A DNA stretch of 64,000 nucleotides. Origin: an uncultured Gemmatimonadota bacterium (GTDB lineage: Bacteria > JAAXHH01). Shown here piece by piece: positions 4,263 through 40,468 of this stretch (positions within the stretch are counted from its first letter, which is position 1; every line of letters begins with the position of its first letter). Location of the stretch: assembly GCA_951812955.1 (NCBI GenBank), contig OX638340.1, forward strand, positions 3,584,001 through 3,648,000. Direction: 5' to 3'. Both the position numbers and the translations under genes were made by a program. The notes under the pieces were generated by a model. The model was given only the letters and a program-made list of their open reading frames with translations, made no database searches and was not told the DNA's origin.

Positions 4263-5225
4263 GTGTCCGAAGAAACCGAAGTACCCGAGCAGATCGAAGC
4301 GCAACATCTCGACCGTCCGACGGTTCCCGAACTGGATGAATTCCTTGGCGTTCCCTTCAAGGTGCTCGACGACGGGTTCGTCCGCGTCGTGGACTACATG
4401 GGCAGCGATCACTCCATCGTGCAGGCCGCCCGTGTTTCCTACGGCGCCGGTACCCGGCAGGTCCACCAGGACCGGGGGCTGATCCGCTATCTCATGCGGC
4501 ATCAGCACACCACTCCCTTCGAGATGTGCGACATCAAGTTTCACCTGCGGGTGCCCATGGACTGCTGGCGCCAGTGGATCCGTCACCGGACGGCCTCTGT
4601 CAATGAATACAGCACCCGTTACTCGCTGGCGATCGATGCGGCGCAGACCACGCCGCCCGATGCGTGGCGGTTCCAGGCGCAGGGCAATCGCCAGGGCAGT
4701 GGCGGTTTCGTCGACGAAGCACAGGGAGCGCGTTTTACTGAGAAGGAACAGGAGCTTCAGGAGGCCGCCCGGTCCCGCTACGAAGAGCGCATCGAAGCCG
4801 GCATCGCCCGGGAACAGGCCCGTAAGGATCTTCCCCTTTCCACGTACACGGAAGCCTACTGGAAAGTGAATCTCCTGAACCTGCTTCGGTTCCTGCTCCT
4901 GCGCATGGACGATCACGCCCAGTGGGAGATCCGGCAGTACGCCCATCTGATCGGACACCGCATCGTGTCCGCCTGGTGTCCCGTGGCGTGGCAGGCCTTT
5001 CTCGACTACAGCGTGAACGCCATGCAGCTGACCCACCTGGACTGGGAGATCATCCGGGCGATTCAGGCTGGAGACGACAAGGCGATTCAGGATCTGCTGC
5101 TGGAGTACCGGTTCGTTTCGAAATCCGGTACCCTGCGCCGCAACCGGGAGCGGGACGAGCTCGAAACCAAGCTTCAGAAGCTGAATATCCCGATTCCATG
5201 GCGATCCGGTGATGATCCCGACTAA
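4263..5225 (+). CDS. thyX: Flavin-dependent thymidylate synthase ThyX
   Basis: ThyX signature RHRTASVNEYSTRYS (RHR-x7-S). GTG start 4263. AT-rich divergent intergenic region upstream. Confidence 0.85.
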   Translation: MSEETEVPEQIEAQHLDRPTVPELDEFLGVPFKVLDDGFVRVVDYMGSDHSIVQAARVSYGAGTRQVHQDRGLIRYLMRHQHTTPFEMCDIKFHLRVPMDCWRQWIRHRTASVNEYSTRYSLAIDAAQTTPPDAWRFQAQGNRQGSGGFVDEAQGARFTEKEQELQEAARSRYEERIEAGIAREQARKDLPLSTYTEAYWKVNLLNLLRFLLLRMDDHAQWEIRQYAHLIGHRIVSAWCPVAWQAFLDYSVNAMQLTHLDWEIIRAIQAGDDKAIQDLLLEYRFVSKSGTLRRNRERDELETKLQKLNIPIPWRSGDDPD

Positions 5226-28473: not shown

Positions 28474-31400
28474 GTGCGTCATATGAGAACCATACCCGTC
28501 CTCCTGGCCGGCCTCATCGTGCTGTGTATCATATCCGCCTGTCAGACGACAGGGGTCCGCGAGCGCGTGGCGTTCCAGGCCGAACCAGTCGGCGAAGGTC
28601 AGGTGACCGCCGTGGTCGATTCCACGCGGATCCGGCAGACCATCACAGACCTGGTGTCCTTCGGTTCCCGCGTGGCCGGCTACCCAGGCGCCACCGAAGC
28701 GGCCCACTACCTGGCGGGCCGCATGGACGAGATCGGACTGGAGGACGTGGAGATGGAAGAGTTCGTCGCTTCCGTCCCGCTGGACGAGGGCGGCGAACTG
28801 GTCATCCTGGACGCCACGACCTTCGCAACCCCGTCGATTCCCCTCCACGCCGTGTGGCCCAACCTGGTACGCACTTCCACGACGCCACCGGCCGGGATCA
28901 CGGGCATGCTGCACTACGTGGGCGCCGGCGAATGGACGGACTTCAACGGCATCGATCCCACCGGCGCCGTCTTCCTGATGGACTTCAATTCCGGCGTGAA
29001 CTGGCAACGCGCCGCCATGCTCGGTGCGGGCGCCGTGATCTTCGCGGAACCCGACCACACCACGCGGGTGGACGGCGAGGAGAAATACCTCCAGGTCCCG
29101 GTCAATTTCCCTCGATTCTGGATGGAGAAGGAATGGGCCGGCCCACTCGTGGAGTATCTTGAAGTCAACGGTCCCTTCACCGTCAGGACAAAGGGGCGCA
29201 TGACGTGGAAACGCCTCCCGGCCTACAATGTTATGGGAAAGATCACGGGAACGCACCCTGTGCTGAAGGAAGAAGCCATCGTGCTGGAATCCTACTACGA
29301 TTCCATCTCTCCCGTGCCTGCCGTATCCCCCGGAGCGAACCAGGCATCGGGCGTGGCCGCGCTCCTGGAGATGGCCCGGTACTTCGCAGCCCATCCCCCG
29401 GCGCGCACCGTGTACTTTCTCGCGACCTCAGGGCACTTCCTGTCCCTCAGCGGCGTGAACGACTTCACGAACCGGCATACGCGCAAGACCCCCTATTTCG
29501 CGGAGCAGATCGAAGAACCGATCAACATGAAGCTCTTCGCCGGGATCGACCTCTCGAGCGCCCGGGACCAGATCGGTGTTTATTATGCCGGCATCCTCTT
29601 CGCCGGGAACTCCTTCGAAAAACAACGGTTTTTCACACCTTTCGGCCGGACCTTCATGGGTTACGCGCAGGAGGTGATCCGTCGCGGGGTTTTCCCTTCG
29701 GACGCGCTGATGAACGTGATTACGCCCTCCCAGGGCATACAGAGTACGGAGTTCTTTCCGGCGGGCAACATCGCGCTGGACGCGGAACTGGTCTTCTGGA
29801 CGGGTTTCCCCGCGCTCTCCTTTGCCACGGTTTTCGACGTCCGCGAGTACGTAGACACTCCCCTGGACGATATGGAACGGGTGAATATCCGCAACGTGTA
29901 TACGCAGGCCGTGCTGTTGACGGAACTATTCGGGCGGGCCGTCAACGACCCCATGCTGTTTCCGGACTTCAAGATGCAGCTCGACGATCGTTTCGTGCGC
30001 GGACGAATCCGGGTGGTCGAGTTCGATCCCCGGGAAGACTATATCCCCAGCAAGCCCAAGCCCGGAGCCGTGGTCCGGTTCCGCCGTTACAACAAGAGCA
30101 TCAGCGGGGTCAAGAACGAGATCTTCGTGGTGGCGGACAGCATGGGCGTAGCCGAAAGCACGGAGCTGGAGGCGGGACGCACCTATCCTACCGAGGGATA
30201 CGTCATGGATCCCGATACGGGGGACATCATCTACGCGCCGGACCGGGGTCCCTACGGGGAAGGAGCCTATCCCCTCGAGATTACGATGGACTGGGTGGAC
30301 AAGGAAAAGCCCACGGTAGTCTTCCGTTCCGATGCGACCAACCTGTATGACCTCGTGGATCCGAGGTTCCTTACCCGGCTCAACGAGGCCGTGCTGCTGG
30401 ATGAGTCGGGCAATCCGCCGCTCGAGTGGGGCATGACCTTTCAGGAGGGCGGCTGGACCACGGGTTTCTCCTACGAGGAAGACACGGCCGTCCTTTTCAC
30501 GCCGCCGGAAAGCCGGTTCAAGGTCACCATGTCGAGCGGACTGTTCGGCCGCCGCCTGATCCTTACCAACGCCGGTGAAGACCATCCGGAAGGCATCGGT
30601 TTCGAGTCGGGGATCGGCGCGATTCCCCTGACTTCCTACCAGGTCGCGCGGGACATGTGGCACCTCGACGAAGCGCGGATCGCCGCACTCAAATCCGTGG
30701 GGGTAAGCAACGTCCGGCTGGACGAGTTCCACCAGGAAGCCGGACGCCTGCTGGACCTGGCCGAATCGGCCCGTCAGGACCTGCAGTGGGACCGCTTCAT
30801 AAAGTACGCCCGGGCCGCCTGGGGTTACGAGTCCAGGGCCTACCCCGACGCGACGGGAACGGCCAACGACGTGGTGAGGGGCGTCCTGTTCTACATGGTA
30901 CTGGTGATTCCCTTCGCCTACGCGCTCGAGCGGCTGGTCTTCGGTTTCGCAAATGTCTACAAGCGGATCGCCATGTCCTTTGCCATCTTTCTCGCGGCCT
31001 ACGGCGTGCTTCGATTCACCCACCCGGCGTTCCAGATTACCACGGCGCCCGATATCGTCCTCCTCGCCTTTATAACTTTCGTCCTGGCCGCCGTGGTCAT
31101 CTGGCTCATCTCCCAGCGGTTCAGCCAGACCATGCGGGAGTTCCGGCAGCACACCCACAGCGTGCAGGCCACCGACGTGCGCCGTTCGAGCGCGCTGGCT
31201 ACGGCCTTCGCTCTCGGTATCGGGAACATGCGCAAGCGCAAGGCCCGGACGCTGCTGACCTGCGCCACGCTCGTACTCCTGGTATTCACCGTGCTGTCCT
31301 TTACTTCCGTACAGACCTACCTGCGGATCCAGAAAGTGAGCACGGACGCGGAATCCGTCTACACGGGTTTCCTGGTCAGGAACCCAAACTGGGCGCCGCT

Positions 31401-33069
31401 ACAGAAGCAGACGCACCAGTACGTGCTGTCGGAATTCGGGTCGACAGAGGCCGAAGACGAGGACATCACCATCGTGCCCAGGTCGTGGTACGCCGGCACC
31501 GCGCCGGGGGTGAATACCTACATCAAGGTCGAGCATGACGCCGCGGACAGTTCCGCCCGGTCCACCTACGCGTCGGCCATCCTGGGCCTGCTACCGGACG
31601 AGCGGACGGTCAGCGGCCTGGACCGTATCCTGACGGCGGGAAGGTGGTTCGAGGGGGATGAAAGGGACGTGTGCATCCTTCCCGTTGAGATGGCGCAGCT
31701 GCTCGGGATGTCGGAAGAGGACGCAGGTCAAAAGGAGATCAGGATCTTCGGCAAACCCTTTAAGGTCATTGGCCTATTCGACTCGGCCGCAATGGACAGG
31801 ATCACCGACCTGGACGACGAGCCGCTCACCCCCGTGGATTACACGGCGACGGGGCGCGACCTGATCACAGAACTTGCCATGATGGATTACGATGAGGAAC
31901 CGGTGCAAATGGCCCGATTCGAACACCTCCCGGCCGCGAATCTGATCCTTGCGCCCCATGCCTACGTAAACGACGTCGGGGGAACGCTCCGGTCCGTCGC
32001 GGTCCGTTTCCCCTCGGATGATACCGCCCTCGACCGGATCGAACGCTTCATGCAGCGGCTGGGGATACCCGTGGTGGCCTCCGTGGGCGGAGAGGTCGCC
32101 GTGTACAGCGCCATGGCGCTGAGTTCACTTTCGGGCCTGGGCAACCTGTTCATCCCCATGGTCGTGGCCGCGCTGATCATCCTGAACACCATGATGAACG
32201 CCGTCTATGAACGCTTCAGCGAAATCGGCGTATACAGCGCCGTGGGCCTGGCGCCGGCGCACATTGGCGCGTTGTTCATGGCCGAAGCCGCCATGTACGC
32301 CGTGATCGGCGGCATGTCCGGCTACCTCATCGGGCAGACCGTTGCCCGCGGCATCACGGAATACGAGATGCTTGCGGGGTTGACGCTGAACTATTCCTCC
32401 CTGTCCGCGGTGGCCTCGACGGCCATGGTCATGGTGGTGGTCATGCTCTCGACGATTTATCCAGCGCGCAAGGCCTCCCAGATGGCCGTTCCGGACGTCA
32501 ACAGGCAGTGGTCCTTCCCCGATCCCGAAGGCGACGACTGGCGTTTCGAGTTTCCCTTTACCATCAGCCGCACGGAGACGCTCGGCCTGTGTGCTTATCT
32601 GACCCGGTTCTTCGAGTCCTACGGCGAGAGTACGCTGGGGAGTTTCATGACGGACGAGGTGGGCCTGACGGGCAGGAATGGCGGCGCGACCGGCGCAGAC
32701 GCGGACTCCGCATCGGGCGCGGCTACTGATTCCGCAGCCGGCGGGAACTTCGAATCGGCAGACGCCGCGGCCACGTACGAAATCACCATGAAGACTTGGC
32801 TGGCCCCTTACGACACGGGAGTCAGCCAGCAGGTGACCCTTCACGCGTCGCCCGCCGAGGACGAACACGACCTGTACGCCGTGTGGGTGCACATCTATCG
32901 CCTGAGCGGCGACGTGGATTCATGGCAACGACTCAACCGCCGCTTCCTGAACGTGCTACGCAAGCAGTTCCTGGTCTGGCGCACCGTGGACCAGGAGGTC
33001 AAAACGGTCTACGCGGGTGAGGGGCGGGAGATGATTGCATCCGTAGCGGGAGACGCGGTCGAAGCTTGA
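28474..33069 (+). CDS. Giant lipoprotein fusing a degenerate M28-peptidase/PA-like domain to a MacB/FtsX-type permease
   Basis: Lipobox LIVLCIISAC. M28-like block ESYYDSIS...GANQASGVAALLEMAR...ATSGHF in which Zn-ligand positions are substituted. MacB-type TM1 (NMRKRKARTLLTCATLVLLVFTVL). C-terminal FtsX domain (...MMNAVYERFSEIGVYSAVGLA...STIYPARKASQMAVPDVNR). Asp/Ala/Gly-rich C-terminal tail. Confidence 0.65.
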   Translation: MRHMRTIPVLLAGLIVLCIISACQTTGVRERVAFQAEPVGEGQVTAVVDSTRIRQTITDLVSFGSRVAGYPGATEAAHYLAGRMDEIGLEDVEMEEFVASVPLDEGGELVILDATTFATPSIPLHAVWPNLVRTSTTPPAGITGMLHYVGAGEWTDFNGIDPTGAVFLMDFNSGVNWQRAAMLGAGAVIFAEPDHTTRVDGEEKYLQVPVNFPRFWMEKEWAGPLVEYLEVNGPFTVRTKGRMTWKRLPAYNVMGKITGTHPVLKEEAIVLESYYDSISPVPAVSPGANQASGVAALLEMARYFAAHPPARTVYFLATSGHFLSLSGVNDFTNRHTRKTPYFAEQIEEPINMKLFAGIDLSSARDQIGVYYAGILFAGNSFEKQRFFTPFGRTFMGYAQEVIRRGVFPSDALMNVITPSQGIQSTEFFPAGNIALDAELVFWTGFPALSFATVFDVREYVDTPLDDMERVNIRNVYTQAVLLTELFGRAVNDPMLFPDFKMQLDDRFVRGRIRVVEFDPREDYIPSKPKPGAVVRFRRYNKSISGVKNEIFVVADSMGVAESTELEAGRTYPTEGYVMDPDTGDIIYAPDRGPYGEGAYPLEITMDWVDKEKPTVVFRSDATNLYDLVDPRFLTRLNEAVLLDESGNPPLEWGMTFQEGGWTTGFSYEEDTAVLFTPPESRFKVTMSSGLFGRRLILTNAGEDHPEGIGFESGIGAIPLTSYQVARDMWHLDEARIAALKSVGVSNVRLDEFHQEAGRLLDLAESARQDLQWDRFIKYARAAWGYESRAYPDATGTANDVVRGVLFYMVLVIPFAYALERLVFGFANVYKRIAMSFAIFLAAYGVLRFTHPAFQITTAPDIVLLAFITFVLAAVVIWLISQRFSQTMREFRQHTHSVQATDVRRSSALATAFALGIGNMRKRKARTLLTCATLVLLVFTVLSFTSVQTYLRIQKVSTDAESVYTGFLVRNPNWAPLQKQTHQYVLSEFGSTEAEDEDITIVPRSWYAGTAPGVNTYIKVEHDAADSSARSTYASAILGLLPDERTVSGLDRILTAGRWFEGDERDVCILPVEMAQLLGMSEEDAGQKEIRIFGKPFKVIGLFDSAAMDRITDLDDEPLTPVDYTATGRDLITELAMMDYDEEPVQMARFEHLPAANLILAPHAYVNDVGGTLRSVAVRFPSDDTALDRIERFMQRLGIPVVASVGGEVAVYSAMALSSLSGLGNLFIPMVVAALIILNTMMNAVYERFSEIGVYSAVGLAPAHIGALFMAEAAMYAVIGGMSGYLIGQTVARGITEYEMLAGLTLNYSSLSAVASTAMVMVVVMLSTIYPARKASQMAVPDVNRQWSFPDPEGDDWRFEFPFTISRTETLGLCAYLTRFFESYGESTLGSFMTDEVGLTGRNGGATGADADSASGAATDSAAGGNFESADAAATYEITMKTWLAPYDTGVSQQVTLHASPAEDEHDLYAVWVHIYRLSGDVDSWQRLNRRFLNVLRKQFLVWRTVDQEVKTVYAGEGREMIASVAGDAVEA

Positions 33070-33653: not shown

Positions 33654-33968
33654 GGCTTGATTGTCTTAAGGAGGTAACGCTGTCGTTCAGATATACGTAA
33701 CTTCCCGAAAAGAACGTTACGGTGTCGACGAAACACCGTGGAATAGCACACGATTGAAGGATTTGATGTATCCTATAAACTGAGTTGACCCCGTTTAGTA
33801 CGTATGAATTTTTGTACAACGAGGAGTGTTCGACACAACTCCAAGAAATGTGAATCTGTCTACAAACTGGTAATCTTGGTTTTATGTGCACCGGGTAAAG
33901 TCAGTCCGCGTGGGTATGACAGCGTTTATCGGAAAGCTCGGTCGTATGAGGATCAAGGAGTTGGCGTG

Positions 33969-34394
33969 ATGGCGAGAGTCCGAAAGTCAACTGCAATTGA
34001 ACGATTGCAGAGGTTGGTTGATGAGGCTTCAGAGCTGGATATGGAGGATGATAGCTCTCAGGAAGTTCAAAAATGGATACAGGACGTTTATACCGCTTTT
34101 ATCAACATATTCGGTGAGGATAGTTCTCAGTTTTCACGACTTCCGCAAAGTCACAAAACAACCCCAAGTGGGGTTCGTGAATACCTGAGATCAATGGTTT
34201 CCTGCGTCGCGTCTAGTCTCGATGAGATCAAGTACTTTCGGGAGGATGAAACAGAAACTGTGAAACAACCCTCAGAACAGGGTGACTTAAAAGCACCAGA
34301 TAAGGATTGTTACGACCAGGGATCGGCGACAAAAAAGTCTTTGTCGTTCATGGTCACGACGAGGCCGTCCTGCAGGCGGTTGCGAGATTTCTAG
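33969..34394 (+). CDS. Hypothetical acidic protein (possibly the N-terminal part of a frameshifted TIR-like gene)
   Basis: AAGGAG 33955-33960, ATG 33969. Lower-GC island. Its 3' end overlaps the next ORF by 88 nt, and an A6 run at 34323-34328 separates the two frames. Confidence 0.35.
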   Translation: MARVRKSTAIERLQRLVDEASELDMEDDSSQEVQKWIQDVYTAFINIFGEDSSQFSRLPQSHKTTPSGVREYLRSMVSCVASSLDEIKYFREDETETVKQPSEQGDLKAPDKDCYDQGSATKKSLSFMVTTRPSCRRLRDF

Positions 34395-34768
34395 AAAAGC
34401 TGAAACTCGAACCAGTAATCCTGCACGAACAGGCGAATCAAGGCCGCACGATCATAGAGAAATTTGAGGATCATTCGGATGCGAGTTTTGCCGTGGTTCT
34501 GCTGACACCTGACGACATAGGCGCGGCCGTTACGGATAAGGCCGATCTACGGCACCGAGCTCGTCAGAACGTAATTCTCGAACTCGGATTCTTCATTGGG
34601 AAGTTGGGTCGCAACAGGGTCTGTGCTCTGAAATCGCGTTGTGTCGAAAATCCGTCGGACGTCGATGGGATGGTCTATATCAACCTCGACGAGCCAGATG
34701 CATGGAAGACCGGACTCGTGCGGGAGTTAATGGCAGCTGGTTTCGCCATCGACGCTAACTGGGTTTAG
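34307..34768 (+). CDS. TIR-like (COG4271/CAP12-type) nucleotide-binding domain protein
   Basis: KKVFVVHGHDEAVLQAVARFLEKLKLEPVIL...FAVVLLTPDDIG...RARQNVILELGFFIGKLGRNRV matches the TIR-like COG4271 pattern. Only TTG 34307 is available as a start in this frame. Confidence 0.5.
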   Translation: MLRPGIGDKKVFVVHGHDEAVLQAVARFLEKLKLEPVILHEQANQGRTIIEKFEDHSDASFAVVLLTPDDIGAAVTDKADLRHRARQNVILELGFFIGKLGRNRVCALKSRCVENPSDVDGMVYINLDEPDAWKTGLVRELMAAGFAIDANWV

Positions 34769-34773
34769 CAGCC

Positions 34774-35079
34774 ATGAACGCACAGTTGTCGATTTCCAAA
34801 ACCGAATTGTCAGCCTATTGTAAAAATCATGGCATCCGACGATTAGCAATTTTCGGATCGGTGCTCCGGCCAGATTTTGGCCCGGAGAGCGATATCGACG
34901 TACTGGTCGAGTTCGCACCGAGTCACACTCCCGGTCTGCTGGGCATGGCCGGATTGGAGATTGAACTATCCGAATTGTTTGGCGGTCGGAAGGTGGACCT
35001 GCGGACTCCTGAGGAATTGAGTCGTTATTTTCGACAGAAGGTCATTGACACGGCAGAAGTTCTATATGTGCAGGGATGA
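34774..35079 (+). CDS. mntA: MntA-type nucleotidyltransferase (antitoxin of HepT/MNT toxin-antitoxin pairs)
   Basis: Minimal nucleotidyltransferase motif FGSVLRPDFGPESDIDVLVEF. 101 aa. Confidence 0.7.
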   Translation: MNAQLSISKTELSAYCKNHGIRRLAIFGSVLRPDFGPESDIDVLVEFAPSHTPGLLGMAGLEIELSELFGGRKVDLRTPEELSRYFRQKVIDTAEVLYVQG

Positions 35080-35182
35080 CGAAATCCCATTACAGCACAT
35101 GTTGGACGCCGAGCGGGAGGCAGTGTGTTTTTCACGAGGACACAGTTGGTTGCAGCCGCTAAGTCAAGCCTACCATATCGCG
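35066..35182 (+). pseudogene. hepT: HepT (DUF86) toxin remnant, truncated after 38 codons
   Basis: MCRDDEIPLQHMLDAEREAVCFSRGHSW... matches the HepT N-terminal block, then TAG at 35180-35182. Overlaps the mntA 3' end by 14 nt, as in intact MNT-HepT pairs. Confidence 0.45.
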
Positions 35183-35550
35183 CGTGAATAGTAATCCAGG
35201 ATGGTGGTGTCCGAAGTCACGAGCAGGCATTTGTTCAATTTGGCCGTGGCCACGATCGTGCGGTCGACAGGATCCCGGTGATCCCAGTCCAGTTCGAGAT
35301 TCCCAATCCATGTCCGCACGTCCACTGGACGTACTTCAATCCGTTCGGTCCGTTCCAGATTTTATGCGAAGTCCTGAATGGACAGGGGCAACACAAGATC
35401 GGCCTTTTTCACCCTAACGCCGATCTCCCAGATCGAGATCGAACTGATGCACACGCGGTCGGCTTGTGTAATCGTCTGGTCGTCGATTTTGGACAGGCGT
35501 TCGGGATCCAGTGTCCAGAAAACAAGCGCGGACGTATCCAGTACGACCAT
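35161..35550 (-). pseudogene. VapC-like PIN-domain toxin interrupted by an in-frame TAA
   Basis: MVVLDTSALV...SIWEIGVRVKK...DFA, then TAA (35362-35364), then the same frame continues ...DHRDPVDRTIVATAKLNKCLLVTSDTTILDYYSRAIW* carrying the remaining PIN acidic residues. Confidence 0.6.
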
Positions 35551-35780
35551 TACGTTTCATCCCATTCGTCGATTGTCGGTGTGTCGATGTCTCCATGATA
35601 GACGATCTTTCCCCGCAGTCCATCGAAGATCCTGTCAACCGATTGCTTTGGCTTTATGGGTTTTACACTGAGAACTGGACTCCGGTTATGCGTTACGATC
35701 AGATCCTCGCCCGATTCCTCGATTTCTCGAAATACCCGAAGCATATTGGCCTTCAGCTTGCTCTTCGATTTGAACAGCAT
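35550..35780 (-). CDS. Phd/YefM-family antitoxin
   Basis: KLKANMLRVFREIEESGEDLIVTHNRSPVLSVKP matches the Phd/YefM N-terminal fold pattern. The stop shares a nucleotide with the vapC start (TGATG). Confidence 0.55.
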   Translation of the reverse strand: MLFKSKSKLKANMLRVFREIEESGEDLIVTHNRSPVLSVKPIKPKQSVDRIFDGLRGKIVYHGDIDTPTIDEWDET

Positions 35781-35950
35781 ATGGACTCCAGTCTGTTTAG
35801 TAAAAGACTATGGGCATGACCCTGGTTATATTCGAAGGATTTCCTATGAACCGTCAAGGATTTATCTCATTCTCGGCAACTTAGAAGTCGGATTCCGTGC
35901 GACTATTCCGACTGTATAGGTATGATGTTCAATTCAATGTGTAAGACAGG

Positions 35951-35979
35951 TTGACAATCGACGTCCCGACGTCTAATAT
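35951..35979 (+). promoter_or_regulatory. Near-consensus sigma70-type promoter (TTGACA-N17-TAATAT) with tandem GACGTC palindromes in the spacer; predicted leaderless start for the MTase gene
   Basis: TTGACA 35951-35956, spacer atcGACGTCccGACGTC, TAATAT 35974-35979, ATG 35986. No RBS. Confidence 0.4.
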
Positions 35980-35985
35980 TAAAAT

Positions 35986-37122
35986 ATGGCCACTAACACC
36001 GAAAGATACGCTCCTGGTCGAGTACGAGATGCGATAATCCGGGTGATGAGACTAACGACAGAAGGTTTGTCTGCTAAACAGATCGCAGCGAGAGTTGCAA
36101 AGATAGAGGGCCACATGCCTGAGTCCTCGATCAGGTCTTATCTTCGTCTGAACACTCCAGAGACATTTGTTCGTGAAAGGAGGGGGGTATACCGCCTTAA
36201 GGTAGATCATGACAGCAGTCTGCAACGAACGATGTTCAGGAGTCCACCTTGGCAGGAACCCTTCAAGTTTGGATCGGCTACATTGTTTCATAGTGAATGT
36301 TTGGATTGGCTGGACGCAAGAGATGACCAATCAATCCACGCGATAGTTACCGATCCACCTTACGGTCTGCAGGAATACACAGCGAAAGAGCAGACGAAAC
36401 TCCGAAATAGGAAGGGGGGGATCTGGAGGATTCCTCCTGCATTTGATGGCCACGTTCGTTCGCCGTTACCAAGATTCACTACTTTAACCGATGAACAAAA
36501 ACTTTATCTTCGGGAGTTTTTCTATATCTGGTCTCGTCTACTGATCCCCAAGTTGGTACCTGGCGCCAACGTGGTCGTTGCCTCCAATCCACTACTCTCC
36601 CACATTGTCGCCGGCGCTATAGCGGATTCGGGGCTTGAAAGACGCGGCGACATCGTCAGGCTTGTTATGACTATGCGTGGCGGTGATCGGCCAAAAGCGG
36701 CACATGATGAATTCAAGGACGTCAGTGTGCTCCCCAGATCAATGTGGGAGCCATGGCTGATATTCCGTAGGCCTGTGGAGGGAAGAGTACAGGACAACCT
36801 CAGAAAATGGAAAACGGGAGGGTTTCGACGGCCGACTGGACTCAAGCCATTCGGAGATGTTATTCAATCTTCCCCGACCAGAAAAAATGAGAAGGCGATA
36901 GCACCTCACCCCAGCCTTAAGCCACAATCCTTCTTACGACGCCTCGTGAGGGGTGTTCTTCCACTAGGTGAGGGTATAGTTGTCGATCCCTTTGCCGGCG
37001 CTGGCTCTACTCTCGCGGCCGCTGAAGCAGTTGGGTACGAGTCAATCGGAATAGAAAAGGATTCTCTGTACTTCAATATGGCCAAGGAAGCACTACAGCC
37101 ACTAGCCGAGCTCGAAGTGTAG
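35986..37122 (+). CDS. Beta-class DNA methyltransferase (N6A/N4C type) with N-terminal HTH domain
   Basis: Motif IV TDPPYG upstream of motif I VVDPFAGAGST (beta-class order). N-terminal ~80 aa HTH-like (LSAKQIAARVAKIEGHMPESSIRSYL). Lower-GC island. Confidence 0.8.
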   Translation: MATNTERYAPGRVRDAIIRVMRLTTEGLSAKQIAARVAKIEGHMPESSIRSYLRLNTPETFVRERRGVYRLKVDHDSSLQRTMFRSPPWQEPFKFGSATLFHSECLDWLDARDDQSIHAIVTDPPYGLQEYTAKEQTKLRNRKGGIWRIPPAFDGHVRSPLPRFTTLTDEQKLYLREFFYIWSRLLIPKLVPGANVVVASNPLLSHIVAGAIADSGLERRGDIVRLVMTMRGGDRPKAAHDEFKDVSVLPRSMWEPWLIFRRPVEGRVQDNLRKWKTGGFRRPTGLKPFGDVIQSSPTRKNEKAIAPHPSLKPQSFLRRLVRGVLPLGEGIVVDPFAGAGSTLAAAEAVGYESIGIEKDSLYFNMAKEALQPLAELEV

Positions 37123-37141
37123 GGACTGAAGGAATCCTCAA

Positions 37142-37672
37142 TTACCTGTCTAGGTAAATCCAGTTCTCGCGAAGTTTACTCACGCCAAAGCGGTCAAGTG
37201 TGGCAGTTCGTGTGCCGAGTTCCCCTCTCGGATTGCGTCTAAAGTCTTCGATGGTTACCCTAGATAGGTAGACTTCCCTAAACGTCATTGGAAGTCTTGA
37301 TGAAGAGGGTTCGGTTTTGTTATCGACCTCGTATACAAATACACACATCCACTGGTCGCGCGCGCCATGTGTATCGACCGCACCGCCTTTTTTCTTCGTG
37401 GTTTTGATTTCAAGACCCTGATCTCCCGACTTAACGGAGTTTTCTGCGTAAACTCCCTGAACGAGAAGGTCAGGATGGCCATTGAAGTAGTTGTTTTCAG
37501 TAAGCACCCTTGAATGTTTAGCCAGACTGGCCGTCAGCATGTCCGATAGCACACCAGACATGATAGCGGGTCTCAACATATCGTCAAGCCGTTCCAGTCC
37601 GCGGTCTACCAGATGAGAATTGACATCGTGGAAGAAATCATAAACGTCCTGCATTGCCGACTCGAAATCCAT
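37142..37672 (-). CDS. Putative type II restriction endonuclease (PD-(D/E)xK)
   Basis: Convergent with the MTase, 19 bp tail-to-tail. GHPDLLVQGVYAENSVKSGDQGLEIKT gives PD...EIK spacing. Low GC with a very AT-rich upstream region. Confidence 0.45.
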   Translation of the reverse strand: MDFESAMQDVYDFFHDVNSHLVDRGLERLDDMLRPAIMSGVLSDMLTASLAKHSRVLTENNYFNGHPDLLVQGVYAENSVKSGDQGLEIKTTKKKGGAVDTHGARDQWMCVFVYEVDNKTEPSSSRLPMTFREVYLSRVTIEDFRRNPRGELGTRTATLDRFGVSKLRENWIYLDR

Positions 37673-37864
37673 AATGCGGAGCTGATATGGTAAAGTCGAG
37701 TCAGGATTGAATGATTCTCTTACTACGACATTTCTGGATTGTTTGATCCGTTCGTCTCCTTCATGTTATCTGAATGCATGTTTCAACAAAATGTGATTTA
37801 CTGTGAATTTGTAAACCACTACCTACAATATCATGACCTAGAATCTCATGAAAGTAAAATCAAT

Positions 37865-39019
37865 CTATTCCTCCACGGCCCGCAGATCCAGCGCCAGGTC
37901 GCGGAAGCTCCGCACGCGGTGTAGGGTGACCAGGTTGGTGTCGTGCTGGTTCTTGCCGCCGCGCGCGGTGCGGGCGACGACGAGTAGATCGTCTCCGGAG
38001 ATGACCTGCGAGGCGTAGCTGAAGGACTCCATAATGCTCCTGCTCATGGCCACGCATCCGGCCTGGAACCAGTTGAGGGCGTCCATGCTGTACATAAGCA
38101 TTAGGATACGCCGCTCGTTTCCCGGCGGTCCGCTGAAACCGATTCGCCGAAGGGGTTCCCGGTCCTGCCACGGGTTCGTGGACAGGGTCACCGTGGTCCA
38201 GTAGAGACCGCCTTTATCGTCGTGGACGATCTGAAACTTGCACTGGGCGCCCGGCATGGGGTGGAACTGGAGGAAACGGTAGTCGAGGTTCCGACCGTCG
38301 TCCTCGACCCGTCCGATTGATGCCAGGCTCGACGTCGTGTGGCCATCGACGATCGTGCGCATGACCATCCGGATCTCGCCGTCCACCAGCACGATGTTGC
38401 CCTCCAGGAAGCTGTCGGCCGGCACCTTGTCCTTCAGGCTTTCGGGATATTTCCGCTGCGAGAGCACATCGGGGATACCAGGAAACCGGACGTGATTGGA
38501 CATGCGCCAGGCCGCCGGATCCAGGAGGTCTCGCGCCAGGTCGCCGGCCACCACCAGCGACTTCCAGTCGAAACGGCTGGGCGCGTCGCAGGTCTCGAAG
38601 GCGCGGTAGGCATGCCCGTTGTGGATCAATACCGGCGTCGGTGCGCAGTGGTGCTTCCCTTCGAAGAGCGTGACCGGCCCTTCCCAGGTGAAGCCGCCGT
38701 CCCGGGAGCGGCCGATGACGATGTCCCGGCTTTTGCGCTTGTTTCCGATGAGATAGGCGTCGTCCCCGTAGGCCCAGACGGTCGCCCAGATGAAATCCTG
38801 GCACGACGCGAGGGTCCACGTTGCGCCGTCGTCGTCACTGACCAGTACCTCGGTCTGATCCGGCACGGATTCCTTGAGCGGACTGGGACGGAACCATTCG
38901 TAACTGGCCAGCAGGCGTCCCGAGCGCATCCGCGCGATCGACGGTGAACCGGCGTATACGTTCTCCGGGTCGGGTGACGAGGCCAGTACCTGGTAGTCTT
39001 TGGCGAGCATTCGATTCAT
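37865..39019 (-). CDS. BNR/Asp-box repeat glycoside hydrolase (sialidase-like)
   Basis: Asp-box motifs SDDDGATW and SRDGGFTW. 384 aa. Confidence 0.7.
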   Translation of the reverse strand: MNRMLAKDYQVLASSPDPENVYAGSPSIARMRSGRLLASYEWFRPSPLKESVPDQTEVLVSDDDGATWTLASCQDFIWATVWAYGDDAYLIGNKRKSRDIVIGRSRDGGFTWEGPVTLFEGKHHCAPTPVLIHNGHAYRAFETCDAPSRFDWKSLVVAGDLARDLLDPAAWRMSNHVRFPGIPDVLSQRKYPESLKDKVPADSFLEGNIVLVDGEIRMVMRTIVDGHTTSSLASIGRVEDDGRNLDYRFLQFHPMPGAQCKFQIVHDDKGGLYWTTVTLSTNPWQDREPLRRIGFSGPPGNERRILMLMYSMDALNWFQAGCVAMSRSIMESFSYASQVISGDDLLVVARTARGGKNQHDTNLVTLHRVRSFRDLALDLRAVEE

Positions 39020-39286
39020 GTCTAACGACCTCCTGGTGATTGGGATGTAAAAACGATTCTACCCGGGTGCAACGCGCTTGTCAACGGGAAGGTACCCGCT
39101 GGATCCGCTCGAAATCGCGCTACCCGAATACGAGAGCGCGAGACCTTCCCATAGTTCTTTACACGCGGCGCCATATTGCCCTTGATCTGAATCGCCCCCG
39201 ACCTGTATCATAGAACCGATCACCAGGACAACCATTCCAGATACGAACATAGCGCATCGAACCGGGTCCGCCGGGAGGATACACTT

Positions 39287-40468
39287 ATGGCCGGAAAAAC
39301 CAACCTGTCCCGCAGAGACTTGCTGATCAAGGGAGGGCTCGCGACGGCCGGCATGGCGCTGCTGCCATCCCACGTACTGGCCCAGTTGGCCCAACTGGCG
39401 CGGGACGAGACGCCCGTGGACTGGATCGATGAATTCGGGCCGCCGCAAAGCCCCGATTTCGTCCTGCTGGACTGGAACGGACTCGAATCTTGGATTACGC
39501 CCGTAGACCAGTTCTTCTCGGCGAGCCACTATCCCGAGCCCACCGTGGCCGGAGAGGGCTACAGCCTGGAGGTTTCCGGCGCGGTAAGACAGAAGCTCAA
39601 TCTGAGCCTCGACGAAATCAAGTCCATGCCGAGCAAAGACGTTATCTTCACCCTCGAGTGCTCGGGTAACCGGGGCGTCCCCGTTTTCAGGGGCGGCGTG
39701 TACAACGCCCGGTGGACCGGCACGCCGCTGGCGCCGATCCTGGAACGGGCAGGGATGTGGGGGAACGGTATCGAGGTGGTTTTCTTCGGACACGATGAAG
39801 GGGTCGAGAACATCACGCCAATTCGAAGCGAACCGCTGGCGATGAAACAGAATTTCGCCCGGTCGCTGACCACGAAACAGGCGATGGATCCGGACATCCT
39901 GCTGGCCTATGAGGTTAACGGACAGACGCTGCCGCCGAAGCACGGATATCCCCTGCGGCTCATCGTACCCGGCTGGTACGGCATCACCCAGGTGAAGTGG
40001 CTGAAACGCATCGAGGTGCGCACTACCCGGTACATGGGCAGGTTCATTTCGCGGGATTACGTCACGGTCCGCGAGGAGACCCACAACGGGGAGACCGTAT
40101 GGCGCCAGGAATCTGTTGGAAAAGGCAGGATCAATTCCGTCACGGCACGGGTCACGCGGGTCGGTCCCCTGCACCGGATCTACGGCGCGGTATGGGGCGA
40201 ACCGCTCAGGGAGGTCCAGGTGCGCATCGATGACGGAGCATGGCAGACGGCCGAAATCATCGAGGGGCTGGACGCCGAACACGCCTGGAAGTTCTGGCGG
40301 TTGGACTGGGACAGGCCTTCAGCGGGCGAGCATACGATCACTTCACGGGGCGTAACGACGGGCGGCACGATACAGCCCGCGCCGGACGATCCCTACCTGG
40401 CCGGCAAGAAGACTTACTGGGAAAGTAACGGCCAGGTGACCCGGACTATTCAGATCTTCGAAAGCTAG
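39287..40468 (+). CDS. Sulfite-oxidase-family molybdopterin oxidoreductase with Tat signal
   Basis: SRRDLLIKGGLATAGMA twin-Arg signal. Mo-co binding core (ECSGNRG..., GYPLRLIVPGWYG) plus a C-terminal dimerisation-like domain. Confidence 0.75.
   Translation: MAGKTNLSRRDLLIKGGLATAGMALLPSHVLAQLAQLARDETPVDWIDEFGPPQSPDFVLLDWNGLESWITPVDQFFSASHYPEPTVAGEGYSLEVSGAVRQKLNLSLDEIKSMPSKDVIFTLECSGNRGVPVFRGGVYNARWTGTPLAPILERAGMWGNGIEVVFFGHDEGVENITPIRSEPLAMKQNFARSLTTKQAMDPDILLAYEVNGQTLPPKHGYPLRLIVPGWYGITQVKWLKRIEVRTTRYMGRFISRDYVTVREETHNGETVWRQESVGKGRINSVTARVTRVGPLHRIYGAVWGEPLREVQVRIDDGAWQTAEIIEGLDAEHAWKFWRLDWDRPSAGEHTITSRGVTTGGTIQPAPDDPYLAGKKTYWESNGQVTRTIQIFES

What the first reader, a model, noticed from the sequence alone, without database searches (positions are those of the whole stretch)
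33969..34768. TIR-like (COG4271-type) ORF split from an upstream acidic ORF by a 1-nt frameshift at an A6 homopolymer
- ORF 34307-34768 carries the TIR-like pattern (KKVFVVHGHD...VVLLTPDDIG...RARQNVILELGFFIGKLGR). This is the pattern seen in CAP12/PycTIR-type NAD+-depleting defence effectors.
- Its frame is closed immediately upstream (TAA at 34301). Its only start is TTG 34307, with no spaced RBS.
- The upstream ORF (33969-34394) has a good RBS and overlaps it by 88 nt in another frame.
- Adding one A to the A6 run at 34323-34328 would fuse the two ORFs into one ~267-aa protein reading ...GSATKKVFVVHGHDE....
- Three explanations fit: an unknown N-terminal domain plus TIR-like effector with a sequencing error at the homopolymer, a phase-variable or inactivated gene, or slippage-dependent expression.
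- The N-terminal part (MARVRK...KQPSEQGD) is acidic and unrecognised. It could be a novel sensor domain.
Basis: partly seen in the sequence, partly recalled or inferred. Interest (0 to 1): 0.75.

Follow-up and report, generated by a model that had tools for sequence, protein, structure and literature searches.

The report
Frameshift-broken TIR defence gene copy
The two overlapping reading frames are a single, already catalogued candidate anti-phage gene (helical N-domain plus TIR NADase-type domain) missing one base at a Lys-Lys A-run, most likely a recently inactivated copy and therefore ordinary.

Summary
ORF 33969-34394 and ORF 34307-34768 are two halves of one gene, out of register by one base at an A6 run. 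That run lies at 34331-34336, not at 34323-34328.

- **What the gene is:** the repaired 266-aa protein matches the PADLOC candidate defence family PDC-S35 end to end (E 2e-80). Its C-terminal half is a PF10137 CAP12/PycTIR-type TIR domain (E 1e-39) with the invariant Glu intact.
- **Relatives are unbroken:** more than 100 homologues are single ORFs. Nine independent assemblies of the same low-GC islet, about 99.5% identical, carry the gene intact, as ACC AAA AAA GTC or ACA AAA AAA GTC. The missing base is the only indel across 4 kb.
- **The islet is decaying:** its PIN toxin has a nonsense codon shared by other assemblies, and HepT is truncated. The family is also dead by other lesions in other lineages, including a second one-base loss at the same A-run and a 5-nt deletion.
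- **Verdict:** a genuine recent inactivation is most likely (about 0.6), and a long-read consensus error is next (about 0.27).
- **Recoding:** the zero-frame A_AAA_AAG heptamer could allow trace -1 read-through. Nothing indicates an evolved recoding or phase-variation device.

Interest is low.

The parts
33955..33960 (+). Shine-Dalgarno-like AAGGAG, 8 nt upstream of the ATG of the gene
   Evidence: Read directly from the sequence.
33969..34394 (+). Zero-frame ORF of 141 aa. It comprises the N-terminal helical-bundle domain (residues 1-95), an acidic disordered linker (residues 96-121), Lys-Lys, and then an 18-aa out-of-frame tail ending at TAG 34392-34394.
   Evidence: ORF list and translation. 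AlphaFold models have helices at 6-22, 31-48 and 66-90, with pLDDT 85-97. This part matches the N-terminal part of the PADLOC PDC-S35 profile.
34331..34337 (+). Site of the lesion: the A6 run (34331-34336) plus G, giving the zero-frame heptamer A_AAA_AAG. It is one base shorter than every intact allele.
   Evidence: Intact relatives read GCG ACC AAA AAA GTC (7 assemblies), GCG ACC AAA AAG GTC (L164) or GCG ACA AAA AAA GTC (L001). The window reads GCGACAAAAAAGTC.
34307..34768 (+). The -1 frame ORF of 153 aa from TTG, carrying the CAP12/PycTIR-type TIR domain (about 34334-34690). The putative catalytic Glu205 codon GAA is at 34580-34582.
   Evidence: Pfam PF10137 E 1.3e-39. PDB sequence hits to Cap12 and PycTIR align across the RxNVxxExG motif. 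Foldseek best hits are SfSTING TIR, MyD88 TIR, SpbK and SPARTA TIR. The Glu is invariant in 107 homologues.
33889..33968 (+). Short relic resembling the C-terminal TIR motif (HRVK-SVRVGMTAFIGKLGRMRIKELA*) in a third frame. Its stop overlaps the ATG of the gene.
   Evidence: tblastn E 0.17. FIGKLGR is identical at protein level, but five of its seven codons differ from the gene's own and every difference is synonymous. The relic is conserved in L001. It is weak evidence and was not followed up.
34774..35079 (+). MntA-like nucleotidyltransferase antitoxin gene, starting 6 nt after the stop of the TIR gene. Intact.
   Evidence: Pfam Polbeta / NTP_transf_2. NCBIfam MntA_antitoxin E 4e-10, which is below the curated cut-off. 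It sits directly downstream of N-domain+TIR genes in 25 of 69 loci.
35066..35191 (+). Truncated HepT toxin remnant of about 41 aa, against 118 aa in L003
   Evidence: ORF translation MCRDDEIPLQHMLDAEREAVCF..., compared with the L003 HepT-like gene and sequence.
35170..35550 (-). PIN/VapC-type toxin pseudogene with an in-frame TAA at 35362-35364, where L001 and L002 have GAA
   Evidence: The same stop is present in L004 and L084. The gene is called as a 62-aa product in L164-L169.
35550..35780 (-). Putative Phd/YefM-like antitoxin of the PIN module
   Evidence: Weak Pfam hit to PF02604, E 0.046. It is syntenic in L001 and L002.
35986..37122 (+). N6/N4 DNA methyltransferase of the same low-GC islet
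   Evidence: Pfam PF01555 E 2e-16. An identical protein occurs in five further assemblies.
37142..37672 (-). 176-aa ORF convergent with the methylase, with no family match. It may be the cognate endonuclease; this is inference only.
   Evidence: No Pfam or NCBIfam hit. Conserved synteny in L002 and L165-L169.
33654..37860 (.). Low-GC islet (45-53% GC against 62-65% in the flanks) that carries all of the above
   Evidence: Composition profile. The islet is 99.5% identical to other assemblies while the flanks are about 97%.

Best explanation
**What it is.** The region encodes one gene of the PADLOC candidate single-gene defence family PDC-S35. The encoded protein has three parts:
- a roughly 95-aa N-terminal helical bundle;
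- an acidic disordered linker;
- a C-terminal CAP12/PycTIR-type TIR domain with its conserved Glu.

**How the intact protein would work (inferred).** By analogy with Cap12 (TIR-STING) and PycTIR, it would act as an abortive-infection NAD+-degrading effector. This has not been tested for PDC-S35.

**What happened here.** In this genome the gene has lost one base at the Lys-Lys A-run, exactly at the linker/TIR boundary. Ribosomes starting at the good RBS therefore make a 141-aa N-domain fragment and terminate at 34394. The TIR frame has only an RBS-less TTG.

**Conclusion.** I judge this a genuine, very recent loss-of-function allele in a horizontally acquired toxin/defence islet that is decaying. 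The rest of the gene is still perfect. A trace of full-length protein could still arise by -1 slippage on A_AAA_AAG. That would be incidental rather than designed.
For: **Shown: it is one gene.**
- The repaired protein matches PDC-S35 end to end.
- The C-terminal half is a TIR domain by sequence and by fold.
- More than 100 homologues are single ORFs.

**Shown: the lesion is unique to this copy.**
- Nine independent assemblies of the same islet carry the gene intact: L001, L004, L084 and L164-L169. They include MEGAHIT- and scaffold-type contigs.
- This deletion is the only gap in about 4 kb at about 99.5% identity.

**Shown: the event is recent.**
- The repaired protein departs from the >=90%-conserved columns of 107 homologues at only one position, R91. 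The intact sister alleles share that residue.

**Shown: the islet is really decaying.**
- The PIN toxin carries a GAA->TAA nonsense substitution shared by independent assemblies.
- HepT is truncated.

**Shown: the family is repeatedly inactivated in nature by lesions that cannot be homopolymer miscalls.**
- L170 has a 5-nt deletion between CGA repeats, 20 nt upstream of the same A-run.
- L067, an Illumina assembly, has stops and frameshifts. L064 has many lesions. L061 has a 1.3-kb insertion.
- L015, a different species, has lost one base at the same A-run.

**Shown: the window assembly is otherwise clean.**
- About 50 long uninterrupted ORFs are present, and about 20 other 6-mers lie inside ORFs that remain open.
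- A G7 run inside the methylase gene agrees with the other assemblies.
- Only 5 of the 28 homopolymers of 6 or more bases lie in the islet, so a random miscall would hit this gene infrequently.
- Against the dominant allele (ACC AAA AAA) the missing base is a C of a CC pair, not a long-homopolymer contraction.

**Inferred.** The NADase or abortive-infection function, and selection against a toxic effector.
Against: - No reads are available. The window ORF is recorded on a 3.81-Mb contig, which I take to be a long-read chromosome-level MAG, and the residual errors of such assemblies are homopolymer indels.
- If the true allele were ACA AAA AAA, as in L001, then A7->A6 would be the classic artefact.
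- The lesion is unique among ten assemblies of the islet.
- The second case at the same run (L015) also comes from a long-read-type chromosome assembly.
- With only 3-5 nucleotide differences from the intact alleles, no test for relaxed selection is possible.
Confidence: 0.6

Rival explanations
1. Assembly or consensus error. The organism really carries an intact gene, with A7 or CC+A6, and the long-read consensus dropped one base at or next to the homopolymer.
For: - The exact 153-aa window ORF is recorded on a 3.81-Mb contig, which I take to be a long-read MAG.
- The lesion lies at the longest homopolymer in the gene.
- All nine other assemblies of the islet are intact.
- The rest of the gene is flawless.
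- L001, a related long-read contig, shows many single-base indels that break neighbouring genes. This shows such data sets can be noisy.
- L015, the other one-base case at this run, is also a chromosome-level MAG.
Against: - The 64-kb window shows no other broken ORF, and about 20 other 6-mers inside ORFs leave those ORFs open.
- A G7 run in the methylase gene is read correctly.
- Against the closest alleles the missing base is a C of CC, or the change needs an extra substitution.
- The hit falls on a dispensable toxic gene in an islet with two proven dead toxins. A random miscall would do this in only 1-5 of 28 cases.
- A near-identical relative of L015 from a scaffold-type assembly is dead by a 5-nt deletion. 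Real inactivation of this gene is therefore common.
Confidence: 0.27
2. The A-run acts as a functional switch or recoding site. One version is reversible slipped-strand ON/OFF phase variation of a costly abortive-infection effector. The other is low-level -1 ribosomal frameshifting on A_AAA_AAG, which would yield mostly N-domain fragment plus a small dose of full-length TIR effector, as in a 'savior indel' with compensatory frameshifting.
For: - The zero-frame heptamer A_AAA_AAG is among the most -1-prone motifs in E. coli (PMC4066793).
- The concept of a savior indel with low compensatory frameshifting is established (PMC5009743).
- An AGGGA stretch lies 8 nt upstream of the heptamer (34318-34322).
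- A second lineage (L015) has lost one base at the same run.
- Three synonymous or length variants of this 7-nt stretch occur among near-identical alleles.
Against: - Nearly all homologues are in frame. A runs of 7 or more at this site occur in only 5 of 147 loci, and the run is simply two Lys codons.
- The nearest relatives carry interrupted runs, such as ACC AAA AAG.
- The only downstream hairpin starts 2 nt after the heptamer, which I judge too close to act as a stimulator (own knowledge of typical spacer lengths). It is not significant (z -1.1).
- Without stimulators, the reported motif/background ratio of at most 10 over a 0.055% background implies roughly 0.5% frameshifting at most.
- The flanking sequence is identical in the intact alleles, so nothing has evolved for recoding.
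- Clustering of polymorphism at the run is weak. My rough estimate is P about 0.04-0.1.
Confidence: 0.1
3. The two ORFs are two genuine separate genes: a small acidic protein and a stand-alone TIR protein.
For: - Gene callers annotated TIR-only products of 148 aa in L002 and L003.
- The 153-aa ORF is on record as a called product.
Against: - L002 and L003 are in fact uninterrupted 266-aa-type frames in which the caller chose an internal ATG.
- All close relatives have one ORF.
- The window TIR frame has only a TTG without a spaced RBS, and it overlaps the upstream ORF by 88 nt.
- One profile spans both halves.
Confidence: 0.01

Closest known systems
PADLOC PDC-S35 (Phage Defence Candidate, single gene; PADLOC-DB v2)
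   Same: The repaired protein matches profile PDLC05005 over residues 7-264 of 266 (E 1.9e-80), and four further PDC-S35 profiles. The architecture is the same: N-terminal helical domain plus PF10137 TIR.
   Different: - This copy is interrupted by a one-base deletion.
- PDC families are predictions by 'guilt by embedding' (PMC12881386).
- I found no paper that names PDC-S35 in the searchable library, so the defence function is untested.
CBASS Cap12 (TIR-STING NAD+ hydrolase; PDB 7UN8, 9LMQ)
   Same: It has the same TIR subtype (PF10137) with a shared RxNVxFExG motif containing the catalytic-type Glu. It gives the best sequence and fold matches in the PDB.
   Different: - There is no STING domain, and no CD-NTase gene is visible in the gene content of the locus.
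- The NCBIfam Cap12 equivalog scores are 34 and 29 bits against a 450-bit cut-off.
- The extra domain here is N-terminal and helical.
Pycsar PycTIR (PDB 8JSJ)
   Same: The TIR domain is C-terminal, as it is here. The PADLOC PycTIR profile hits residues 120-241, and the PDB sequence hit has E 1e-4.
   Different: - The PycTIR profile matches only through its TIR part (profile positions 150-261). The N-terminal part of that profile does not align to this N-domain.
- No cyclase gene is adjacent; the neighbours are a cupin gene and an MntA-like gene.
dnaX / IS911-type programmed -1 frameshift sites (A_AAA_AAG)
   Same: The heptamer is identical and sits in the correct zero frame, and the -1 product is the full-length protein. 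The motif is ranked among the most efficient in E. coli (PMC4066793).
   Different: - The frameshift is not conserved in homologues.
- There is no correctly spaced stimulator.
- The configuration arose from a deletion in an otherwise in-frame gene.
'Savior' indels with compensatory low-level frameshifting (herpesvirus thymidine kinase G-run; Atkins et al. 2016, PMC5009743)
   Same: Both involve a one-base indel in a homopolymer of a gene whose full activity is costly, leaving a slippery run that may allow trace expression.
   Different: No expression data exist here. The parallel is purely an analogy.
Type VII toxin-antitoxin HepT-MntA
   Same: The gene is followed 6 nt later by an MntA-like nucleotidyltransferase gene and a HepT remnant. 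The same order recurs in 25 of 69 N-domain+TIR loci across several phyla.
   Different: - HepT-MntA is described as a two-gene module.
- A linked TIR gene was not found in the searchable literature.
- Here HepT is truncated.

Membership tests
PF10137 CAP12/PycTIR-type TIR domain | Profile match above the Pfam gathering score | tested here: met
   135.3 bits against a 24.7-bit cut-off, E 1.3e-39, covering profile positions 1-118 of 119.
PF10137 CAP12/PycTIR-type TIR domain | TIR (flavodoxin-like) fold with the conserved Glu in the NVxxExG motif | tested here: met
   - In the AlphaFold model the TIR part has block-mean pLDDT of mostly 76-92, with one block at 60.
- Foldseek top hits are SfSTING TIR, MyD88 TIR and SpbK.
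- The Glu is invariant in 107 homologues and present in the window at codon 34580-34582.
PF10137 CAP12/PycTIR-type TIR domain | NAD+ hydrolase activity | not testable with these tools
   This needs an enzyme assay on the repaired protein.
PADLOC PDC-S35 | Full-length match to the family profile | tested here: met
PADLOC PDC-S35 | Intact, expressible single ORF | tested here: not met
   A one-base deletion at 34331-34337 splits the gene.
PADLOC PDC-S35 | Demonstrated anti-phage activity | not testable with these tools
   The family is a candidate only, and no paper names it.
CBASS Cap12 (TIR-STING) | Equivalog-level match, including the STING domain | tested here: not met
   NCBIfam NF050171 and NF050172 score 34 and 29 bits against a 450-bit cut-off, through the TIR part only.
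CBASS Cap12 (TIR-STING) | Adjacent CD-NTase gene | tested here: not met
   The neighbours are a cupin gene upstream and an MntA-like gene downstream.
Pycsar PycTIR | Match to the N-terminal part of the PycTIR profile, plus an adjacent pyrimidine cyclase gene | tested here: not met
   - The PADLOC PycTIR profile aligns only at positions 150-261 (TIR).
- The N-domain has no Pfam hit.
- No cyclase gene is among the neighbours.
Programmed -1 ribosomal frameshift site (dnaX/IS type) | X_XXY_YYZ slippery heptamer in the zero frame | tested here: met
   A_AAA_AAG at 34331-34337 with zero-frame codons AAA AAG.
Programmed -1 ribosomal frameshift site (dnaX/IS type) | The two-frame arrangement is conserved in homologues | tested here: not met
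   - More than 100 homologues are in frame, as are all nine closest alleles.
- Only one other one-base case, L015, was found.
Programmed -1 ribosomal frameshift site (dnaX/IS type) | Stimulatory structure a short spacer downstream, and/or an SD-like element upstream | tested here: inconclusive
   - The hairpin starts 2 nt after the heptamer and has z -1.1 against shuffles.
- AGGGA lies 8 nt upstream.
- The same flanks occur in the intact alleles.
Phase-variable contingency locus | Long homopolymer tract conserved at DNA level, with length polymorphism between or within strains | tested here: inconclusive
   - Length differs between strains: A6 frameshifted, against A7 or C+A6 in frame.
- The tract is short and interrupted in most relatives, and runs of 7 or more occur in only 5 of 147 loci.
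- Within-population heterogeneity needs reads.
AbiJ-NTD-type N-terminal modules fused to TIR (Anantharaman et al. 2013, PMC3710099) | Sequence match of the N-domain to a described AbiJ-NTD family | tested here: not met
   - The Pfam scan of the N-terminal ORF at E<=1 gave only noise.
- The resemblance is architectural only.

The most novel reading that the evidence does not exclude
The one-base-short allele is not dead but tuned. Ribosomes slipping -1 on A_AAA_AAG, or reversible slippage of the A-run in the population, would keep a very low or switchable dose of a toxic TIR effector. The abundantly made N-domain fragment would act as a decoy or inhibitor. The independent recurrence of the same lesion at the same Lys-Lys run in another species (L015) would then reflect a reused ON/OFF or dosage switch in a defence gene that sits in a conserved [N-domain-TIR]-MntA-HepT cassette.
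Probability: 0.07. Interest if true: 0.5.

Novelty: new member of a known kind. Interest (0 to 1): 0.17.

Why it matters
The finding itself matters little. It is a disrupted allele of a catalogued but untested candidate defence gene, and it should be annotated as a pseudogene or possible sequencing error. It should not be annotated as two genes or as a novel sensor plus effector pair.

Three points have modest value:
- **Natural knock-out series.** Intact and broken alleles at 99.5% identity form a natural series for a TIR effector family that nobody has tested.
- **Repeated inactivation.** The family is killed repeatedly in different lineages, by five further kinds of lesion, in line with a costly abortive-infection toxin.
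- **MntA-HepT link.** The sub-family with this N-domain is tightly linked to an MntA-HepT module across phyla. This suggests PDC-S35 may not act alone and gives a concrete three-gene unit to test.

Tried and rejected
- **Two separate genes.** Rejected. One profile and one frame span both halves in all relatives. The 148-aa 'TIR-only' calls in L002 and L003 are gene-caller choices of an internal ATG within an open 266-aa-type frame.
- **CBASS or Pycsar effector.** Rejected. Only the TIR domain is shared, there is no STING-domain match, the PycTIR profile aligns only through its TIR part, and there is no cyclase neighbour.
- **Evolved -1 PRF signal.** There is no significant, correctly spaced downstream structure. 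The flanks are identical in the in-frame alleles.
- **Conserved contingency tract.** A runs of 7 or more at this site occur in only 5 of 147 loci.
- **N-domain identity.**
  - No Pfam or NCBIfam family matched.
- **Locating the window's own record and reads.**
  - The exact look-ups of the 141-aa and 196-aa ORFs found nothing.
  - The 153-aa ORF is in the protein collection (3.81-Mb contig) but has no retrievable contig. The sequencing technology is therefore inferred, not shown.
- **Selection test on the broken allele.** Not possible, because only 3-5 nucleotide differences separate it from the intact alleles.
- **Literature.**
  - No paper mentions PDC-S35.
  - No paper links MntA/HepT with a TIR domain.
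Full report
**1. Observation**

- ORF 33969-34394 starts at an ATG preceded by AAGGAG at 33955-33960 with an 8-nt spacer.
- ORF 34307-34768 starts at TTG, and its frame is closed just upstream by TAA at 34301-34303.
- The two ORFs overlap by 88 nt, in frames one base apart.
- The A6 run is at 34331-34336, not 34323-34328.
- The zero-frame codons are ACA AAA AAG TCT, so 34331-34337 is the heptamer A_AAA_AAG.
- Adding one base, or a -1 slip, yields a 266-aa protein reading ...GSATKK|VFVVHGHDE....

**2. What the gene is**

Family and domain matches:
- The repaired protein matches the PADLOC profile PDC-S35 (PDLC05005) over residues 7-264 of 266 at E 1.9e-80.
- Its C-terminal half matches Pfam PF10137, the CAP12/Pycsar-effector TIR domain, at E 1.3e-39.

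Structure:
- A profile of 107 homologues finds Cap12 (TIR-STING; 9LMQ, 7UN8) and PycTIR (8JSJ) in the PDB, through the RxNVxFExG motif.
- An AlphaFold model (mean pLDDT 80) shows a helical N-domain, a disordered acidic linker at residues 96-120, and a TIR fold.
- The best Foldseek matches for the TIR fold are SfSTING TIR, MyD88 TIR, SpbK and SPARTA TIR.
- The frameshift sits exactly at the linker/TIR boundary.
- The N-domain has no Pfam or NCBIfam family.

The protein is not a Cap12 or a PycTIR:
- The NCBIfam Cap12 equivalogs score 34 and 29 bits against a 450-bit cut-off.
- The PADLOC PycTIR profile aligns only through its TIR part.
- No cyclase gene is adjacent.

PDC families are 'guilt-by-embedding' predictions (PMC12881386). 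I found no paper that names PDC-S35. The NAD+-depleting abortive-infection mechanism is therefore inferred from the domain, not shown.

**3. The nearest relatives are intact**

The gene lies in a low-GC islet at about 33654-37860, with 45-53% GC against 62-65% in the flanks. The islet also holds:
- an MntA-like antitoxin gene;
- a truncated HepT;
- a PIN toxin gene with its Phd-like partner;
- a DNA methylase gene;
- a 176-aa ORF with no family match.

Nine independent assemblies carry the same islet. They are:
- L001 (ENA contig);
- L004 (Gemmatimonadetes MAG APA_bin_41, JAPOOT010000289);
- L084 (MKWU01003041);
- L164 (ERZ23495265);
- L165, L166 and L168 (three JGI metagenomes);
- L167 (Logan SRR8092709);
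- L169 (ENA k141 contig).

For the eight close copies, excluding the more divergent L001, identity across the islet is about 99.5% and the gene is intact. In every one of those alignments the only gap is this single base.

The alleles at the run are:

| Allele | Where found |
|---|---|
| GCG ACC AAA AAA GTC | seven assemblies |
| GCG ACC AAA AAG GTC | L164 |
| GCG ACA AAA AAA GTC | L001 |
| GCGACAAAAAAGTC | the window |

- More distant syntenic loci, L002 and L003, have uninterrupted frames without any A-run. Their '148-aa' annotations are caller choices of an internal ATG.
- The repaired window protein departs from the >=90%-conserved columns of 107 homologues at only one position, R91 where homologues have W. 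The intact sister alleles L004, L084 and L164 carry the same R91.
- The lesion is therefore very recent, or it is not real.

**4. Real mutation or artefact?**

Reads are not available. The exact 153-aa ORF is on record from a 3.81-Mb contig. I take that contig to be a long-read chromosome-level MAG, a data type whose residual errors are homopolymer indels.

Points in favour of a true deletion:

(a) The 64-kb window is otherwise clean.
- About 50 long ORFs are uninterrupted.
- About 20 other 6-mers lie inside ORFs that remain open.
- A G7 run in the methylase gene agrees with the other assemblies.

(b) Only 5 of the 28 homopolymers of 6 or more bases lie in the islet, and only one lies in this gene. 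A random miscall would seldom hit here. A real frameshift survives only in dispensable genes.

(c) Relative to the dominant and closest alleles, the missing base is a C of a CC pair, or the change needs an additional substitution. It is not a simple long-run contraction.

(d) The islet is demonstrably decaying.
- The PIN toxin has a GAA->TAA nonsense codon at 35362-35364.
- L004 and L084 show the same stop. L164-L169 are called as the same 62-aa product.
- HepT is cut to about 41 aa.

(e) The family is often dead elsewhere, through lesions that cannot be miscalls.
- L067, an Illumina assembly, has stops and frameshifts.
- L064 has many lesions.
- L061 has a 1.3-kb insertion.
- L170 has a 5-nt deletion between CGA repeats, 20 nt upstream of the same run.

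Points in favour of an artefact:
- The lesion is unique among ten assemblies of the islet.
- If the true allele were A7, as in L001, then A7->A6 is the classic error.
- The only other one-base case at this run, L015 (OZ245326.1), which reads AGC AAA AAA TCT where its 99%-identical relative L170 reads AGC AAA AAA ACC, also comes from a chromosome-level MAG.
- L001 shows that related long-read contigs can be noisy. It has many single-base insertions that break genes which are intact in the window.

I put a real deletion at about 0.6 and an artefact at about 0.27.

**5. Recoding or phase variation?**

Points in favour:
- A_AAA_AAG in the zero frame is the dnaX/IS911 heptamer and is among the most -1-prone motifs in E. 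coli (PMC4066793).
- 'Savior' indels with compensatory low-level frameshifting are a known phenomenon (PMC5009743).

Points against:
- Without stimulators, the reported background is about 0.055% and the motif/background ratio is at most 10. That implies roughly 0.5% frameshifting at most.
- The only downstream hairpin begins 2 nt after the heptamer and is not better than shuffles (z -1.1).
- The flanks are identical in the in-frame alleles.
- At this Lys-Lys site, A runs of 7 or more occur in only 5 of 147 homologous loci, and the closest alleles interrupt the run.

Remaining hints:
- The same lesion recurs in L015.
- Variants are mildly concentrated in this 7-nt stretch among near-identical alleles, with a rough P of 0.04-0.1.

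These hints suggest a mutational hot spot. They do not show a designed switch. I give this reading about 0.1.

**6. Mechanism in this genome**

- Shown: initiation signals exist only for the upstream frame. That frame ends at 34394 after an 18-aa out-of-frame tail.
- Shown: the TIR frame has only a TTG with no spaced RBS.
- Inferred: the cell makes a 141-aa N-domain fragment and essentially no TIR effector, apart from possible trace -1 read-through. The putative NADase arm of the islet is off, like its PIN and HepT toxins.

**7. Comparison and novelty**

- The feature works like a PDC-S35-type TIR effector and, once repaired, belongs to that family.
- It shares only its TIR domain with Cap12 and PycTIR.
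- Its heptamer resembles dnaX-type sites but fails the conservation criterion.
- It is a new, broken member of a known kind.
- Interest is low. The correct annotation is 'frameshifted PDC-S35-family TIR-domain gene, pseudogene or possible sequencing error'.

**8. Side observation worth recording**

- Among the fetched loci, an MntA-like nucleotidyltransferase gene lies directly downstream of the TIR gene in 25 of 69 loci whose protein has this N-domain. It is usually followed by HepT.
- The same arrangement occurs in 0 of 81 TIR-only loci.
- The 25 loci span Gemmatimonadota, Alphaproteobacteria, Binatia, Nitrospirota, Gammaproteobacteria, Chloroflexota and Spirochaetia. About eight of them are near-identical sponge-associated copies.
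- No paper in the searchable library links MntA/HepT with a TIR domain.
- The 'single-gene' candidate may therefore be part of a three-gene cassette.

Noticed in passing
window 34774-35191; loci L001-L017, L021, L035, L047, L079, L164-L169: An MntA-like nucleotidyltransferase gene starts within a few nt (6 nt in the window) of the stop of the N-domain+TIR gene in 25 of 69 such loci, and in 0 of 81 TIR-only loci. HepT usually follows. The loci span several phyla, which suggests a mobile three-gene cassette, [N-domain-TIR]-MntA-HepT, rather than a single-gene system. No paper linking MntA/HepT with a TIR domain was found.
   Followed up: partly
L015 about 4357-4362 (OZ245326.1); L170 613 and 632-640: A roughly 70%-identical orthologue in another species is split by a one-base shortfall at the same Lys-Lys A-run (AGC AAA AAA TCT). 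Its 99%-identical relative L170 has that run in frame (AAA AAA ACC) but carries a 5-nt deletion between CGA repeats 20 nt upstream. These are two independent inactivations of one lineage's gene near the domain junction.
   Followed up: partly
window 35170-35550 (-), stop at 35362-35364: The PIN/VapC-type toxin gene has an in-frame TAA where L001 and L002 have GAA. The same stop is in L004 and L084, and L164-L169 are called as the same 62-aa product. It is therefore a real, population-wide pseudogene. Its Phd-like partner at 35550-35780 is intact.
   Followed up: yes
window 35066-35191: The HepT toxin is truncated to about 41 aa. The PIN/Phd module lies immediately downstream and overlaps the remnant's 3' end. 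L003 has a full 118-aa HepT and no PIN module at that place.
   Followed up: partly
window 33889-33968: A third-frame relic, ...SVRVGMTAFIGKLGRMRIKELA*, mimics the TIR motif NVILELGFFIGKLGRNRVCAL. Five of the seven FIGKLGR codons differ from the gene's own, all synonymously. Its stop overlaps the ATG of the gene, and it is conserved in L001. It may be the remnant of an earlier TIR-like gene or cassette.
   Followed up: partly
window 33654-37860 against the flanks 30042-33038 and 37865-38768: The low-GC islet is about 99.5% identical to the other assemblies, while the housekeeping flanks are only about 96-98% identical. This suggests recent exchange or a sweep of the islet among strains of a sponge-associated Gemmatimonadota population.
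   Followed up: no
L001 11900-14500 against window 37865-40468: L001 carries many single-base insertions relative to the window. They split genes that are intact in the window, namely the 384-aa ORF and the 393-aa molybdopterin oxidoreductase-type ORF. L001 is therefore the noisier assembly even though its TIR gene is intact.
   Followed up: partly
window codon 34239-34241 (residue 91): The window and its intact sister alleles L004, L084 and L164 have Arg (CGG/CGT) where 103 of 107 homologues have Trp. The more distant L001 keeps Trp (TGG). This may be an earlier weakening substitution in the N-domain, or a tolerated change.
   Followed up: no
L002 4001-4447; L003 4001-4447: Gene callers annotated 148-aa TIR-only proteins from an internal ATG, although the full 266-aa-type frame is open from 3644. 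Database entries for this family therefore include artificially short products.
   Followed up: yes
window 37142-37672 (-): A 176-aa ORF convergent with the N6/N4 methylase gene has no Pfam or NCBIfam match and is syntenic in all islet copies. It may be an unclassified type II restriction endonuclease.
   Followed up: no
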